From the NCBI RefSeq assembly GCF_009914755.1, contig NC_060941.1: a stretch of 64,000 nt of DNA; one strand, written 5' to 3'. Source of the stretch: the human T2T-CHM13v2.0 reference genome, Homo sapiens. Positions 3,060-64,000 of this stretch are shown here, piece by piece. The position numbers were made by a program, and so were the translations under genes. The number at the start of each line of letters is the position of its first letter. Position 1 is the stretch's first letter. The notes beneath the pieces are model-generated. The model ran no database searches, was not told where the DNA came from, and worked only from the letters and a program-made list of their open reading frames with translations.

Positions 3060-6300
<3,241 letters not shown>

Positions 6301-6518: not shown

Positions 6519-6650
6519 GGTATCGGTACAGCAATCGGAGAGCTGCCTCCATATTTCATGGCCAGAGCAGCTCGCCTCTCAGGTGCTGAACCAGATGATG
6601 AAGAGTATCAGGAATTTGAAGAGATGCTGGAACATGCAGAGTCTGCACAA
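6519..6650 (+). CDS. VMP1: VMP1 coding exon (exon 7, 132 nt, phase 0-0): [44 protein letters not shown]
   Basis: Acceptor ttttcacctag|GGT and donor CAA|gtaaga. The translation is recognisable VMP1 ([10 protein letters not shown] motif). Exon number is from recalled gene structure. Confidence 0.97.
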
Positions 6651-8985: not shown

Positions 8986-10213
8986 TTATGAAATAAAATT
9001 CAACCAAGTATGGTTATAGTTTTTAATTAAATACAAAACTTTCAAATATGAATTTAGAATAGCCAAATATAAACCAAATGAAATAAAGAGCCATGAACAT
9101 CTGCTCTTTGTGGAAAGAGCAAATTGCCCTGGTATCTGCTTTGCCTTATCTGCCAACCAAATATTATGCCTCTCATGACATCATAATGCTTATATTAATG
9201 CTAATAATTATTACAAATATAAACTTTTAAAATTATTTTTAACATTTTAAAAATCCAGTATTTAATATGACCCTTGTGTTAACTCTGAGGGAGTTTGGAA
9301 AGGTACCATTCTTCTAACTTTATAGAAAACAGTAGATTTAGTTGTTACTTCCCAAATTTCACATACTTATAGGTAGAACAAAAACTCAGAATGCCAGCAT
9401 TACTGGTATATTCCGATTACTGAAACCAGTCTGTCCACAGAAGCAGATGGGTGAGACTTGTGACAACTGATAGTTCTTTGAGTTATGGCACTAACTAATG
9501 TATGTCATTTAACATCTCTAAAATTCTTTTTTTATCTATATGAAATCAGCAAGTTGAAGTGGAATAAATATAAGGTGGCTTGCAGCTATACATTTTTTTG
9601 CTATGACTTGGATTCCAAATGGGTATGAGAGTTGTTCTCTCATAAGTCAACTAATGTACTATGATTATTTCTCCTTTTGTTTTTAAACCTTTTTTTCTTA
9701 GAATTAACATTTTCAAATTTGCATAGTCTTTACATCTCTGGCTTGCCTTCTCTCCCCTCCAACAGCCCTGTAAAAACATCTCATGATACCACTTTCCACT
9801 CGGTAACACAAATAAAATTATATCAATTCCATTTTTTTTCATGAAGTCATCTCTCTGGAGCCCTCCATGCTCCCACTCCATTCTGGACTTGCTGTTCAGT
9901 TGCCCTTCTGCACAGTTGCTTCTGTCTTGGTTTAGATTTCTTGTCTTCCTCTTTCTTAATTTACACCTTCGTTTTGCTTGAACATATTCTGCTGTAGCTT
10001 TCTGTGAAAGGGTGAGTAAATGGAAAATGTGATACCATACATTCTAAACTAGCATGTTCTTCATTCACAATTAATTAACTGAATATAGGATTGTGGGTTG
10101 AAAATCACTTTTTATACTTAGAATTTGGAAGGCATTGTTCAATTGTCTTCAAGTTTCTGTAATTGGTATCCAGAGGACTGATGCCCTTCTGAGTCCTCTT
10201 TATAAGCAGTCTA

Positions 10214-20305: not shown

Positions 20306-28450
<8,145 letters not shown>

Positions 28451-33922: not shown

Positions 33923-35243
33923 GCACATACAGTTATATATAGTACATAATACTTGATAGTAAATGAAATGTGTCATTGGTTTATATATTTACTATACTAT
34001 AGTTTTATCTTTTGTGTGTGTGTATGTTGAAGGGGGAGATCATCTTGCTCTGTTGCCCAGGCTGGAGTGCAGGGGTGTGATCACCGCCCACTGTAGCCTC
34101 AACTTCCTGGGCTCTGGCAATCCTCCTGCCTCAGTATCCCGAGTAACTGGGAACACAGACTTGCATCACCACACCCAGCTAATTGTTTTTTTTTTTTAAT
34201 TAGTTATAGAGACTTGGTCTCCTTATGTTACCCAGGCTGCTCTGGAAGTCCTAGGCTCGAGTGATCCTCCCATCTCGGCTTCCCAAATTGTTGGGATTAT
34301 AGGCATGAGCCACTGTGCCTGGCCCAAAATATCTTATATACCATATTGTATTTGTACCTTTTTTATATTTAAAAACATATTTAGGCCGGATGAGGTGGCT
34401 CATGCCTATAATCCCAGCACTTTAGGAGGCCGAGGCAGCCGGATCACCTGAGGTTAGGAGTTCAAGACCAGCCTGGCTAATGTGGTGAAACCCCATCTCT
34501 ACTACAAATACAAAAATTAGCCAGATGTGGTGGCAGGTGCCTGTAATCCCAGTTCAGGCAGGAGAATTGCTTGAACCTAGGAGGCAGAGGTTGCAGTGAG
34601 CCAAGATTGCGTCTTTGCACTCTAGCCTGGGTAACAGGAGCTAAACTCCATCTCAAAAACAAAACAAAACAAAACAAAAAACATATTTAGGCCAGGTGTA
34701 GTGACTCACGCCTGTAATCCCAGCACTTTGGGAGGCCAAGGTGGGCAGATCACTTGAGGTCAGGAGTTCGAGACCAGTCTGGCCAACATCGCGAAACCCC
34801 ATCTCTACTAAAAATACAAAAATTAGCTGGGCATGGTGGCACGCACCTGTAGTCCTAGGTACTCTGGAGTTTGAGGTGTGAGAATCGCTTGAACCCAGGA
34901 GGTGGAGGTTGCATTGAGCCAAGTCACGCCACTGCACTCCAGCCTGGGCGACAGAGCGAGACCCTGTCTCAAAATAAAATAAATAAAACAAAATAAAATA
35001 AAAACATGTTTAGATACACATATACTTACATTGTGTTACAATTGCCTACAGCATTTAGTACAGTAACAGGTTGTGTAGGTTTGTAGCCTAGGAGTGGTAG
35101 CTATACTAGATAGCCTAAGTGTGTAGTAGGCTATATAACATCTAGGTTTGTATAAATACACTGCATGATGTTCACACGACAATGAAATCGCCTAACAACT
35201 CATTTCTCAGAATATATGCCAGTTGTTAAGCCACACATGACTG
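33378..35243 (+). mobile_element. Tigger3 (Golem)-family DNA transposon interrupted by four Alus
   Basis: TIRs (ta)cagtcatatgccacataac / gttaagccacacatgactg; internal gatgctggtgtaaacaaacct and aatgaaatcgcctaac. Confidence 0.85.
33861..33916. repeat. Compound microsatellite (TA)12(TG)16 in an Alu tail
   Basis: Counted directly. Confidence 0.95.
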
Positions 35244-35499
35244 GAATGGGTTATAAAGGCAGGTAATTTAAACTTCCATAACATATTAACCAAGTATACA
35301 TTTATCTTCGGTAACATTGCATTGGTTTTACATGTTTAGGGATTTTCTGTTGCTTTTATTTCATTTTTTTATGTCGCCCAGGCTGTAGTGCAGTGGCACG
35401 ATCTCTGCTCACTGCAACCTCCGCCTCCCGGGTTCAAGCGATTCTCTTGCCTAGGCCTCCTGAGTAGCTAGGATTACAGGCGCCAGCCACCACGCCTAG

Positions 35500-35796
<297 letters not shown>

Positions 35797-37071
35797 TGAG
35801 CCACCGCATATGGCCTTCTGTTGCTTTTAAAGAGATCTTTTCATATGGCTTCCTCGTGAAAATGAAAATGTTTACTGTTACTGTTTGAAGATAAAAGTTA
35901 CTTCGTATATTTACATTCATGTTGACATCATTAGATTCAAAGATCAATATTTTGCAGACTGTTATTAGCCTTGTAGTTTCTCTTCTCTCTCAATCATAAA
36001 TATCTTTCTTAAGAAAAAGAAATGTGAAGCAACAATGGTACAGGCATATTCATAGTTTAAGGCTTTGTCTTTCTGTATTTAATCTTGAAATTCAGTGATA
36101 AGGAATTGCTGTGACTTTTTTTTATTAGTCTTGTAGTGCTTGGGAAAATGTTTCTTGCGTCTCCTGTTTCAGAAGCGTGATTGGTTTACATATATAATCA
36201 CTATGGGTTGTGGTAGGAAAGGTAATTTATTTACCTATAATTGGTTTTATTTTTGTGAAAAAAGAAAAGTAGAAAATGATTTGTAATTGCTAATTGTAAA
36301 TGCATGCTTCATATTTAAGTAGACTTAGAGAATGAAACTATCATCTCAGGCACTTAAGTTGTGAAATAGGTAAAAGTTGTGAAATGTAAATACAGAGAAA
36401 TGGAACTAATAAAAGGTGTTTGTTTTTAGTTTATGGATTTTTGAAAAAGTGAAAAATGACATGTGAGGAAGTAATCAAATTGGTCATGCTACATTGTTCC
36501 CCACAATACTCCAAAACTATTCAAATGAAATATTAATTTTTTTAACTTTTAATGGGAACATTGAATACCTAACATACAATTTGTTTGTAATCTTTTATTT
36601 AGTTTTTCTTAAAAATATTGTTTATTATTGGTGTGTATTTGTACTCAGCTTTTTTATTTTACTTGGACTAAAAAGAACAGCAAAATTTGTTTAAAATTTT
36701 TTTTAATTTTATAAAAGGGATTTTTTTTGTTTTGGTTTAGCTTTTTGGTGGTGTTAGGTGTGTGAGTAATAGAGTCAAGTTTATTAACAATATACGTAGA
36801 ATAAAATTCTCATTATAAAGGCAAATGAGAATATATATATTTTAGTTCATAAACAATATTATTCTAAAATCACAATAAGAGCCGCCAAATTATACAAATA
36901 ATTAAAAAATATACTGAAGTTGTTTTTAGAAAAACAAAGAACTTTTAAAACTACAGAGCAACAAGGAAAGCAAAATTGCACGTAACATATAGAACATTTT
37001 GAACAATAAAAGAATAATGTTTTCAATAAAATTATTACATAAAGCTGTTAAAACTATATAACTAAGTTTTA

Positions 37072-37236
<165 letters not shown>

Positions 37237-39248
37237 TCATCCGGGCGTTGCGGTGTGTGCCTGTAGTCCCAGCTACTCAGGAGGCTGAGGCAGGAGAATC
37301 ACTTGAACCCGGGAGGCAGATGTTGCAGTGAGCCAAGATCGCACCACTTCACTCACTGCAGCCTGGGCGACAGTGAGACTCCAGCTAAAAAAAAAAAAAA
37401 AAAAAAAAGTGAAATAAATTTAAAATAAGAAACAATAAAATATGTTCGTGTTTATCAAATCTAAACATTAAACTTTAGTTATTTTACTATTTTAAAATAC
37501 CAATGCAGTGCTTTCCTGGTTTTGTTTTCATTACACTGGCAAGGAAAAAAATCAAGAAAATACTGTCCATCAAACTGCATATTATGCTAATGTTTATTTT
37601 CTTGAAATAAAAACAACTGTGCAGACTTCATATTAATATAATTTCAGTAAATGTTTGTAGATTATTTGATATATAATGTAATTTAAATTCTGAGAATATT
37701 GTGAAAGACCTGGAAAAAATTATGGGAACTGAAAGTAGCATGGTCACTGTGTATGTTAAATACATAATAAAATTTGTGAAATCCTTTTTCAGTAGATGAC
37801 TTTCACTCTTTTTAAAAAGTAAAGCTCTCCATTAAAAAGGCACTTTACTTGTTTTCCTTATAATACATGCCAGCTTCAAATTTAAAAATTAAAAAAGGTA
37901 AAAGGAGGTTTCAGCTTCACGTGTTCGGATAGATTAACTCTTTGTGCTCAAAAAAAAGATTGTTGAAGCTCCCTTAAGGATAACTAATGAGGAGCACCCA
38001 GGCATCTGAAAGAACGAGAAGTCTGTTTTTCGTTCTTGCCTAATTGCCGTTAAGCAAAGATACTCTTCCCTAAAAGGGAAAAATGGCTCCTTACGTGTTA
38101 TTCCTCTTTGTTAGTAATGATCACTGTGTTTTGACCTCTTTTCAGGATGTTTTTTAAACCATGTTTTCTGGTTCTTCTGTAGTCTTAAGTATGTTTGATA
38201 TTGTTAGGTGATCTGCATAATGTTTAATCATTTTTTTCTTTATATAAACCAGTTGGTATAATTATACCTCTTTTCCTATTTAAGTTTGTATGTGTATATG
38301 TGATTCTATAGAGTAGAAAAATGCCATCAGTTTGAAATGATGGCACAATCTTAGTCACTTGGTTTAAATAAATAGAAAATTCTAAAGCCTTAAAATTAAG
38401 ATAATGCTCTTTGGCAAACTCAAAATAAAAGCAAAAAAAAAAAAAGGAAATTAATATAAAAGAAAGCAGGACACCAGACCTTCTAAATACAATACTTGTT
38501 GATCTTGTCTATACCATTTAATGTAGAAAAACTAATTTTCTATAATTGTGTCTATTAAAGGTGACATTAATGCTGATAGAAAAATATTCCCACATATATC
38601 TGACTTGGAAAACTTATAAAAATTGTGCTGTCTTTAAAATAAAATTTGTATGCTTTTTTTGTTGTTTACTTTACCTTTTCTTGGCAATTGAATACAATCT
38701 TCCCTCTCTTAAAAGTGGATTTGCTATGAAAATTTTAAGGGCTGTAAAGGAAGGCATTTTCCTGATTTTATATATTTAATGCTTGTGCTATAGTAATTAA
38801 AATTTCATAACTAGTTTTTAATTTAATAGTATCTGTTGATACTTTAGACAATTAAAACATTTTTTACCAGTTTTTATTTAGTGCTTCAAATGGATTATAA
38901 ACTTAGTAATTTGGGGACTAATTGTATAAATTGTTAAAAATAAATGGATTTTGCAGAAGGATAGGATTAGTGAAAAGGAGCAGTAAATAATAAAATGTAA
39001 TAGAAATAGAAATGTAATTTGTTTTTAAAATAAGCTATATAGGAAAACTGATTGATTATATATTCTTATATGGTTTTAAATCAATAAAACTCAGTATTTC
39101 ACATTTAATGCAATAGATGCTAAGAAAAAAATTAACCTTCAGCTAGAAATCTAAATAAAAATAGAAAATACCCTTTGCTGCAGTAGTTCAGTTGTTTAAA
39201 AATATTAAATCTGAGGCCTGGGGTGGTGGCTCAATGCCTGTAATCCTA

Positions 39249-41567: not shown

Positions 41568-41648
41568 GACTTTGCCTCCCGGGCCAAACTGGCAGTTCAA
41601 AAACTAGTACAGAAAGTTGGATTTTTTGGAATTTTGGCCTGTGCTTCA
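41568..41648 (+). CDS. VMP1: VMP1 coding exon (exon 8, 81 nt, phase 0-0): [27 protein letters not shown]
   Basis: Acceptor gcctttttacag|GAC and donor TCA|gtaagt; continues the frame of the previous exon. Confidence 0.97.
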
Positions 41649-44426: not shown

Positions 44427-44597
<171 letters not shown>

Positions 44598-63139: not shown

Positions 63140-64000
63140 TGAATCTTCTCCTGAAAAATTTTTTTTTTCATTTATAAGCTTTCAGGGATCTGACTTATGA
63201 CACCCTGAGATTCTTTAGACTTTGTGATTAATCATCAGAGGGAATACTAACCCAGCACAAACAATGAAATAAAGGTAAAAAACTGTTGTGCCCAGACTTT
63301 TTTCTAAGACAAAAGGCTTATTACTCTTTGTAAAGAGGCTATCGCCTCCTTACTAGAATTTATGTCAGAATGTTTTTCAGGAGGGTAAATATAACCTATA
63401 TGCTCACATTAATGCTGAGATCCTCAAAAAAGTATTTGAGAAAGGAGCAGAGCCTATATTAAATAAAAAATTTACTTTATTAATGCTGGTAAAATATTCT
63501 TAGGCTTAGAGACTTCAACTGCTTAGACTTTAAGTATACACTCTGTAAATAGGGCTAAACAAGGTGAATCAATCTTTTTTGTTGGTGTTTTAAGAAACAG
63601 GTTCTCCCTCTGTAGCCCAGGCTGGAGTGTAGTGGTGTGATTTTAGATCACTACAGCCTCAACCTCCTAGGAGGGCTCAAGCAGTCCTCCCCACTCAGCC
63701 TCTTGAGTAACTAGGACTACAGGTGTGCACCACACCTGGTTAATTTTCTGTGTGGGTGTAGAGACAGGAGTCTTACTGTGTTGCCCAAGCTGATCTTGAA
63801 CTCTTAGACTCAAGCAGTCCTCCCACCTCAGCCTCCCAAAGTGCTCGGATTACTGGCATGAGCCACCCTATCCTGCCTGGCCAGATTTCAGATCTTACTT
63901 ATTTATTATCTATCTATCTAATCTATTGATTTATTGAGAGAGAGACAGGGTCTTGCTCTTTCACCAAGGGTGGAGTGCAGTGGTTCAATCCTAGCTTACT

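What the first reader, a model, noticed from the sequence alone, without database searches (positions are those of the whole stretch)
36150..36410. Candidate 49-nt poison (NMD) cassette exon at 36173-36221
Seen: strong acceptor tttcttgcgtctcctgtttcag|AAG and donor AAG|gtaatt (the same intronic hexamer exon 9 uses). The exon is open in the exon-7 frame (KRDWFTYIITMGCGRK plus 1 nt), shifts the frame through exon 8 and stops at TGA 44444-44446 in exon 9, well upstream of later junctions, so NMD is predicted by the established 50-55 nt rule. It has an internal GTGATT/AATCAC hairpin, a downstream RBFOX element TGCATG (36301) and a QKI-type ACTAAT (36405), in sequence with no recognisable repeat. 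Inference: regulated unproductive splicing that tunes VMP1 protein dose.
Basis: partly seen in the sequence, partly recalled or inferred. Interest (0 to 1): 0.7.

Follow-up and report, generated by a model that had tools for sequence, protein, structure and literature searches.

The report
Unproven pseudo-exon in VMP1 intron
A 49-base stretch deep in a long intron of the human autophagy gene VMP1 looks like a small exon that would destroy the message if spliced in, but equally good look-alikes occur by chance nearby and nothing I could reach shows that cells use it.

Summary
The sequence observation is correct. Window 36173-36221 (+) is a 49-nt AG...GT-bounded segment in VMP1 intron 7. If spliced between 6519-6650 and 41568-41648 it shifts the frame to TGA 44444-44446, 97 nt before the next exon junction.

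The features are not clearly above chance:
- Equal-or-better splice-site pairs number 11 on the gene strand: 1 real exon, 2 sharing this acceptor and 8 others. The gene-less strand has 6-7.
- The open frame (41% of 48-nt frames) and the 6-bp hairpin (21% of 49-mers; fold z -0.70) are ordinary.
- Only TGCATG 80 nt downstream is uncommon (1.7% of positions), and it was picked post hoc.
- The 'QKI' ACTAAT overlaps an AATAAA poly(A)-like signal.

No paper or catalogue I could read lists this exon. The VMP1 NMD events I found there are skips of upstream exons.

Conservation and RNA junction support, the decisive tests, could not be run with these tools.

Most likely this is an ordinary intronic pseudo-exon, unused or included only as NMD-cleared noise (about 0.62). 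A regulated poison exon remains possible (about 0.1).

The parts
36150..36172 (+). Acceptor-like site: polypyrimidine tract gtttcttgcgtctcctgttt plus cag. The AG-free zone upstream is only 34 nt, and its only adenines are the four at 36145-36148
   Evidence: AG exclusion zone. Best 40 of 4328 AGs on the + strand by a simple matrix. No good yUnAy branch point inside the AG-free zone, but two real exons score no better
36173..36221 (+). 49-nt exon-like segment (candidate cassette or pseudo-exon). GC 0.37, very TA-rich centre, contains TAGG and GGG
   Evidence: Single copy in the own genome
36222..36227 (+). Donor-like site AAG|gtaatt (mismatch to consensus at +5). Same intronic hexamer as the real donor at 44544
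   Evidence: Best 93 of 3404 GTs on the + strand
36301..36306 (+). TGCATG (RBFOX-type hexamer) 80 nt downstream of the donor
   Evidence: 12 copies in 64 kb; a random position has one within 90 nt in 1.7% of cases. Binding not tested
36405..36413 (+). ACTAAT (QKI-type core, 36405-36410) overlapping AATAAA (36408-36413). TGTA lies about 20 nt upstream and a GT/T-rich run follows downstream, so the same letters also read as a poly(A) signal
   Evidence: 4 of 85 AATAAA sites in the window score as well on the crude TGTA plus GT-rich criteria
44444..44446 (+). TGA reached in the shifted frame if the 49-nt segment is included; 97 nt upstream of the 44543 exon end

Best explanation
This is an ordinary intronic pseudo-exon. 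A good acceptor-like and a good donor-like sequence happen to lie 49 nt apart in a single-copy, very AT-rich (26.5% G+C) part of the 34.9-kb VMP1 intron between 6650 and 41568.

It is either ignored by the spliceosome or included only at noise level. Any transcript that did include it would be frameshifted, would stop at 44444-44446 and would be cleared by EJC-dependent NMD, leaving no selected regulatory role.

Shown: the anatomy, the frame consequence and the chance level of such site pairs. Inferred: lack of use and lack of function.
For: 1. Decoy density. Site pairs at least as strong occur 11 times on the + strand (1 real exon, 2 with this acceptor, 8 others) and 6-7 times on the - strand, where there is no gene. 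Splice-site quality alone therefore gives roughly 1 real exon per 8-9 decoys here.
2. Ordinary features. The open frame (41%), the internal hairpin (21% of 49-mers; region fold z -0.70) and the branch-point context do not differ from background or from decoys.
3. Exon body. It is 49 nt, TA-rich (12.2 TA per 100 nt against 2.5-6.5 in the four real exons), carries TAGG and GGG and has few GAR triplets.
4. The ACTAAT 'QKI' site is equally an AATAAA.
5. Catalogues. VMP1 is absent from the held supplement of the GTEx screen whose main text reports 394 conserved, expressed, unannotated cassette exons. It is also absent from three other catalogues.
6. Two catalogues that do list VMP1 NMD events give only skipping of upstream exons, and none with coordinates in this intron.
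7. Ten full-text searches found no mention of such an exon.
Against: - Both sites are strong: the acceptor is in the top 1% and the donor in the top 3% of the window. Only 1 of the 4 real exons matches it on both.
- Block-shuffled sequence yields only 1.3 such pairs per window.
- TGCATG sits 80 nt downstream, where RBFOX sites are known to enhance inclusion (established knowledge). That is true of only 1 of 11 strong pairs and 2 of 86 relaxed pairs on the + strand.
- Two CpGs (36158, 36176) flank the acceptor in DNA where only 0.21% of 25-nt windows hold two. This could reflect constraint.
- VMP1 is broadly and highly expressed (recalled), so low-level inclusion is likely to be detectable in very deep data.
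- Absence from catalogues is weak evidence. Some held files are cut, GENCODE/Ensembl and the other nine RefSeq models were not visible, and my hg38/hg19 coordinates are estimates.
Confidence: 0.62

Rival explanations
1. One reading: a regulated poison cassette exon. Tissue- or state-dependent inclusion (for example enhanced by RBFOX binding at 36301, modulated by QKI at 36405) diverts part of the VMP1 pre-mRNA into an NMD-degraded isoform and so tunes VMP1 protein dose.
For: - The frameshift and the stop 97 nt before a junction are real.
- The splice-site-like sequences are strong.
- TGCATG lies 80 nt downstream and is rare.
- Two CpGs are retained at the acceptor.
- VMP1 is reported to have NMD-sensitive isoforms whose share changes on ZCCHC17 knock-down (PMC10055234, passages).
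- A Vmp1 splicing event accompanies higher Vmp1 mRNA in Srrm2+/- mouse ES cells (PMC11070786, section 9). The event itself was not visible to me.
Against: - No RNA evidence was found in any source I could read.
- The catalogued VMP1 NMD events are skips of upstream exons, which suffice to explain the 'NMD-sensitive isoform'.
- VMP1 is absent from that paper's held supplement; its main text reports 394 conserved cryptic GTEx exons.
- Decoys of equal quality are as common on the gene-less strand.
- The motifs were chosen post hoc, and the QKI core lacks a nearby UAAY half-site (the bipartite rule is recalled) and doubles as AATAAA.
Confidence: 0.1
2. A real, reproducibly included but unregulated minor NMD isoform. 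It may already be present in GENCODE, CHESS, VastDB or one of the nine RefSeq models I could not see. In that case it is real splicing without a dedicated function.
For: The sites are strong. The gene is long and highly expressed (recalled). The GTEx re-analysis reports 2310 expressed unannotated cassette exons, most of them poison (PMC11632617, abstract and section 15), so such exons are common. The hub table shows only 1 of 10 RefSeq transcripts.
Against: The annotated unproductive-splicing table of PMC10123112 has no entry with coordinates in this intron. That rests on my estimated hg19 coordinates. No mention was found elsewhere.
Confidence: 0.2
3. An alternative terminal exon. The acceptor at 36173 is used, the donor at 36222 is skipped, and the transcript is cleaved and polyadenylated after AATAAA 36408-36413. 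This gives a truncated, NMD-immune VMP1 mRNA whose frame closes at a TAA 111 nt after the acceptor.
For: AATAAA has TGTA about 20 nt upstream and a GT/T-rich run downstream. Only 4 of 85 AATAAA sites in the window do as well on these crude criteria. The read-through frame stops after 37 codons.
Against: AATAAA occurs 85 times in the window, and 20% of positions have one within 200 nt. A good donor 187 nt upstream would be expected to suppress it through U1 (established 'telescripting', recalled). No paper links VMP1 to intronic polyadenylation here: the listing gave 3 papers, 2 of which I read in passages with no relevant mention and 1 of which I did not open.
Confidence: 0.05

Closest known systems
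Intronic pseudo-exons (splice-site pairs in long human introns that are not spliced; concept recalled from Sun and Chasin's work on HPRT)
   Same: Good AG and GT consensus sequences at exon-like spacing, deep in a 34.9-kb intron. They occur at the same density as on the non-transcribed strand. The body is AT-rich with silencer-like TAGG/GGG.
   Different: The sites are stronger than in 3 of the 4 real exons in the window on at least one side, and a rare TGCATG lies downstream.
Poison (NMD-inducing) cassette exons, such as those of SR-protein genes and the cryptic poison exons of PMC11632617
   Same: Inclusion would frameshift and place a stop codon 97 nt before an exon junction. The length is not a multiple of three. 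The position is deep intronic.
   Different: No RNA support, no response to NMD inhibition and no conservation could be shown. VMP1 is not in that paper's held supplement, nor in the other catalogues read.
Known VMP1 unproductive splicing (skipping of 'essential' upstream exons)
   Same: Same gene, same outcome (an NMD isoform that lowers productive mRNA).
   Different: Those events are exon skips at hg19 chr17:57812699-57812834 and 57814814-57814904 (PMC10123112 supplement) and hg38 chr17:59737452-59737543 (PMC13078869 supplement). By my estimate they lie upstream of this window. They are not inclusion of an intronic exon.
Recursive-splicing exons of long vertebrate introns
   Same: A cryptic exon-like unit in a very long intron.
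   Different: A recursive site needs AG|GT so that a 5' splice site is rebuilt after the first step (recalled). Here the acceptor is followed by AAGCGT, so this defining feature is not met.

Membership tests
Poison (NMD-inducing) cassette exon | Bounded by a 3' splice site (polypyrimidine tract plus AG) and a 5' splice site (GT with consensus flanks) | tested here: met
   This is a sequence-level match only. The acceptor is in the best 40 of 4328 AGs and the donor in the best 93 of 3404 GTs. MaxEntScan and SpliceAI were not available.
Poison (NMD-inducing) cassette exon | Inclusion creates a stop codon more than 50-55 nt upstream of a downstream exon junction | tested here: met
   TGA 44444-44446, 97 nt before the 44543 junction. 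At least one further junction follows (50462).
Poison (NMD-inducing) cassette exon | The exon is actually included in RNA (junction reads, cDNA or an annotated transcript) | tested here: inconclusive
   Not found in 10 full-text searches or in the held supplements of 6 catalogues. No junction database and no full annotation were on hand. Some files were cut, and Table S6 of PMC11070786 could not be opened.
Poison (NMD-inducing) cassette exon | The inclusion isoform rises when NMD is inhibited | not testable with these tools
   Needs RNA-seq or RT-PCR with cycloheximide, an SMG1 inhibitor or UPF1 depletion.
Regulated (functional) poison exon | Splice sites and flanks conserved across species | not testable with these tools
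   Only prokaryote genomes and the window's own assembly are held. The only indirect hint is two retained CpGs at the acceptor.
Regulated (functional) poison exon | Bound and controlled by a splicing regulator (RBFOX, QKI) | tested here: inconclusive
   The motifs are present, but they were chosen post hoc. ACTAAT doubles as AATAAA. No eCLIP data were available, and the papers holding VMP1 with RBFOX or QKI showed nothing relevant in their listings.
Intronic pseudo-exon | Splice-site pair of a quality that occurs at background frequency in non-exonic sequence | tested here: met
   There are 8 other pairs on the + strand and 6-7 on the gene-less strand at or above its scores.
Intronic pseudo-exon | Not included in mature mRNA | not testable with these tools
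   Same limitation as above. Absence from catalogues is only suggestive.
Recursive splice site / RS-exon | AG immediately followed by GT so that a 5' splice site is regenerated | tested here: not met
   cag|AAGCGT.
Intronic-polyadenylation terminal exon | Acceptor followed within a few hundred nt by a functional poly(A) signal, with 3'-end reads | tested here: inconclusive
   AATAAA at 36408 with TGTA and a GT-rich flank. 3'-end data are not available.

The most novel reading that the evidence does not exclude
An unannotated poison exon that is enhanced by RBFOX and so included mainly in brain, heart and muscle. There it would divert part of the VMP1 transcripts to NMD and set the dose of this essential ER scramblase and autophagy protein. 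It would also offer a splice-switching oligonucleotide target for raising VMP1.
Probability: 0.07. Interest if true: 0.5.

Novelty: not a real feature. Interest (0 to 1): 0.15.

Why it matters
If the exon were real and regulated, it would add VMP1 to the genes whose dose is set by unproductive splicing. VMP1 is needed for autophagosome formation and lipoprotein secretion, and it hosts MIR21. The exon would also give a handle for raising VMP1 with an antisense oligonucleotide.

As it stands, the case is a caution. Strong splice-site pairs with a frameshift consequence are common in long AT-rich introns: about one per 8 kb per strand in this window. They should not be called poison exons without junction reads or conservation.

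Tried and rejected
**Hairpin as a feature: rejected.** 361 of 1729 window 49-mers have a 6-bp inverted repeat (467 of 5000 composition shuffles do), and the 96-nt fold has z = -0.70.

**Open frame as a feature: rejected.** 41% of 48-nt frames are open. It is also irrelevant, because 49 nt frameshifts anyway.

**Branch-point quality as a discriminator: uninformative.** The candidate scores 2 of 5 inside its AG-free zone, but real exons score 3 of 5 and 1 of 5.

**Exon versus flank G+C: uninformative.** The difference is +0.09, within the real exons' +0.04 to +0.16.

**Repeat origin.** No second copy exists in the own genome for 36100-36420 or 35815-37100. There is no Rfam hit in 35815-37100 at E up to 1. 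No ATG-started ORF of 40 aa or more overlaps the segment; the two found in 35815-37100 are on the - strand and lie in or next to the flanking Alus.

**Recursive splice site: rejected.** There is no AG|GT.

**Literature (all 10 full-text searches used).** VMP1 was searched with:
- 'poison exon': 0 papers.
- 'cryptic exon': 5 papers. I read the VMP1 passages of 2, which concern fusions or mutations. The other 3 were seen as listings only.
- 'nonsense-mediated' plus 'exon': 24 papers. I read passages in PMC10055234, PMC9105363 and PMC6515687 and in PMC4424892. None names an exon in this intron.
- 'UPF1' plus 'splicing': 11 papers, listing only.
- 'RBFOX': 17 papers.
- 'QKI': 16 papers.
- 'exon inclusion': 6 papers.
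- 'pseudoexon': 2 papers.
- 'intronic polyadenylation': 3 papers. I read VMP1 passages in PMC8712528.

The tenth search located the catalogue papers.

**Supplements (all 15 look-ups used).**
- No VMP1 in PMC11632617, PMC7347940, PMC8091538 or PMC12727881.
- VMP1 appears only as upstream exon skips in PMC13078869 and PMC10123112.
- Of the 6 VMP1 mentions in file 5 of PMC13078869 and the 3 in PMC10123112, only 2 each were shown. The rest were checked only through coordinate prefixes.

Full report
**What is there**

The window is human chr17 (T2T) inside VMP1, according to the hub annotation. I re-read the sequence and recomputed the frames.

- The segment 36173-36221 (+) is 49 nt.
- It is preceded by gtttcttgcgtctcctgtttcag and followed by gtaatt. 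That hexamer also follows the real exon 44427-44543.
- The upstream exon 6519-6650 begins and ends in phase 0.
- The segment is open in that phase for 16 codons plus one base.
- The next exon, 41568-41648, is open in the shifted frame.
- The first stop is TGA 44444-44446, 97 nt before the 44543 junction. At least one more junction lies downstream.
- By the established 50-55-nt rule, an mRNA that included the segment would be an NMD substrate.
- TGCATG is at 36301 and ACTAAT at 36405, as stated.

**Is it more than chance?**

I ranked every AG and GT in the window with a simple position weight matrix. The frequencies are recalled and approximate, and I used them only for ranking within this window.

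- The acceptor is among the best 40 of 4328 AGs on the + strand, and the donor among the best 93 of 3404 GTs.
- Only one of the four annotated exons (44427-44543) equals the candidate on both sides.
- Pairs 25-300 nt apart in which both sites are at least as good number 11 on the + strand. That is the one real exon, two pairs using this acceptor, and eight others.
- The - strand, where no gene is annotated, has 7 such pairs. With a strand-symmetric background the counts are 11 and 6.
- Composition-preserving block shuffles give 1.3 on average, range 0-4 in 30 shuffles.

Real genomic sequence is thus richer in such pairs than random sequence. The proper null, however, is non-exonic genomic DNA, and it produces them at about the same density as the gene strand.

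The other supporting features are ordinary:

- 2366 of 5814 sampled 48-nt frames are open.
- 361 of 1729 window 49-mers contain a 6-bp inverted repeat.
- The 96 nt around the segment fold no better than shuffles, z = -0.70.
- A crude branch-point scan finds nothing good inside the 34-nt AG-free zone. The same holds for two of the real exons.
- The exon body has 37% G+C, is unusually TA-rich and contains TAGG and GGG. In the recalled literature these read as exonic silencer-like elements. It has few purine-rich triplets.

Two things are uncommon:

- TGCATG occurs only 12 times in 64 kb, and a random position has one within 90 nt downstream in 1.7% of cases. Among site pairs, 1 of 11 strict and 2 of 86 relaxed pairs on the + strand have one within 100 nt.
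- Two CpGs (36158, 36176) flank the acceptor in a 1.3-kb stretch of 26.5% G+C. Only 0.21% of 25-nt windows in the low-G+C parts of the window hold two.

Both points were noticed after the fact and would not survive correction for the number of motifs and windows inspected. They are the best arguments for a second look.

The ACTAAT core overlaps AATAAA (36408-36413). That site has TGTA upstream and a GT/T-rich run downstream. Only 4 of 85 AATAAA sites in the window do as well on these crude criteria. The 'QKI element' can therefore equally be read as a poly(A) signal.

**Surroundings and both strands**

- The segment lies in a roughly 1.3-kb single-copy stretch (35815-37100).
- That stretch is bounded by Alu-like sequence, seen as sub-threshold Metazoa_SRP and Alu-derived miRNA-family matches. 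These lie at 34030-35000 on both strands, 35363-35814 on the - strand and 37104-37387 on the + strand.
- Nothing in Rfam matches 35815-37100 at E up to 1.
- The stretch matches only itself in the 3.1-Gb assembly. This excludes a young repeat but not an ancient one.
- No ATG-started ORF of 40 aa or more overlaps the segment on either strand.
- No strong site pair on the - strand overlaps it. The nearest is 37115-37384, in the Alu.

**Evidence of use**

I used the paper library instead.

*Full text.* Ten searches found no paper that names an exon in this intron: VMP1 with 'poison exon' gave 0 papers; the other nine are itemised under Tried and rejected.

PMC10055234 (passages read) says VMP1 has an NMD-sensitive isoform in Ensembl 101 that rises on ZCCHC17 knock-down. 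It does not say which exon is involved.

*Supplements.*
- VMP1 is absent from the held file of PMC11632617. Its main text reports 394 conserved, expressed cassette exons from 9423 GTEx samples that are not annotated in GENCODE or RefSeq.
- VMP1 is also absent from PMC7347940, PMC8091538 and PMC12727881.
- PMC13078869 lists one VMP1 AS-NMD event: NMD on skipping of hg38 chr17:59737452-59737543.
- PMC10123112 lists two annotated 'essential exon' skips, at hg19 57812699-57812834 and 57814814-57814904.
- By my estimate all of these lie upstream of the window.
- Searches of the same two papers' files for coordinate prefixes covering the candidate and the two flanking exon ends found no chr17 entry.

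*Caveats.*
- My hg38/hg19 coordinates are estimates. They use recalled positions of MIR21 and VMP1 and assume few indels.
- The hg38-hg19 offset agrees with the two catalogues' coordinates for the same exon.
- Some files were cut when stored.
- Only the first two VMP1 mentions per file were displayed.

*A lead I could not follow.* Srrm2+/- mouse ES cells show a robust Vmp1 splicing change together with higher Vmp1 mRNA (PMC11070786, section 9). The event is only in Table S6, which I could not open.

**Most likely explanation**

This is a pseudo-exon: a chance pair of good splice-site-like sequences in a long AT-rich intron. It is unused or included only as splicing noise that NMD removes, with no selected role.

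Confidence is about 0.62. It rests on three things:
- the decoy density (about 8-9 decoys per real exon at this quality);
- the ordinary exon body;
- the silence of every source I could read.

Rivals:
- A real but unregulated minor NMD isoform, possibly already annotated somewhere I could not see (about 0.2).
- A terminal exon ending at the AATAAA (about 0.05).

A recursive-splicing exon is excluded because the acceptor is not followed by GT.

**Comparison with what is known, and novelty**

In form the segment would work like a classical poison cassette exon. Two defining features are met at the sequence level: the splice-site consensus, and a stop more than 55 nt before a junction.

The features that make an exon real could not be shown. 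These are inclusion in RNA, stabilisation when NMD is blocked, and conservation. I therefore do not file it as a member of that family.

The VMP1 unproductive-splicing events I found in print are of a different type, skipping of upstream exons. If the exon proved real, it would be a new member of a well-known kind and not a new mechanism.

**Verdict**

Interest is 0.15. A few minutes with Snaptron, a conservation track and the full GENCODE set would settle it.

Noticed in passing
TGTA lies about 20 nt upstream and a GT/T-rich run downstream. Only 4 of 85 AATAAA sites in the window score as well on these crude criteria. Together with the acceptor at 36173 this would form a terminal exon of about 255 nt.
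   Followed up: partly
window 36158 and 36176 (+): Two CpGs 18 nt apart straddle the acceptor in a 1.3-kb stretch of 26.5% G+C that holds 7 CpGs in all. Only 0.21% of 25-nt windows in the low-G+C parts of the window hold two CpGs. This is either chance or a hint of constraint.
   Followed up: no
window 35363-35814 (-) and 37104-37387 (+): Alu-like elements in opposite orientation bracket the 1.3-kb single-copy stretch that holds the candidate (sub-threshold Metazoa_SRP matches). Such inverted pairs can base-pair in pre-mRNA and influence local splicing or editing (recalled). Not examined.
   Followed up: no
window 5821-6066, 6186-6277, 9766-10011, 10237-10337/10512, 21726-21843, 24732-24816, 63621-63722 (+): Other + strand splice-site pairs score at least as high as the candidate. 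6186-6277 lies only about 240 nt upstream of the real exon 6519-6650. Several overlap stretches the hub lists as masked repeats.
   Followed up: no
outside the window (upstream VMP1 exons; hg38 chr17:59737452-59737543, hg19 chr17:57812699-57812834 and 57814814-57814904): The VMP1 unproductive-splicing events found in two catalogues are skips of upstream exons (PMC13078869 and PMC10123112 supplements). They probably account for the 'NMD-sensitive isoform' reported to rise on ZCCHC17 knock-down (PMC10055234).
   Followed up: partly
mouse Vmp1 (not in the window): Srrm2+/- mouse ES cells show one of eight robust splicing changes in Vmp1, together with higher Vmp1 mRNA (PMC11070786, section 9). 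The type and place of the event are in Table S6, which I could not open.
   Followed up: no
window 36213-36218 (+): A second, weaker donor-like site GTG|gtagga lies 9 nt upstream of the proposed donor. Using it would give a 40-nt segment, which also frameshifts.
   Followed up: no
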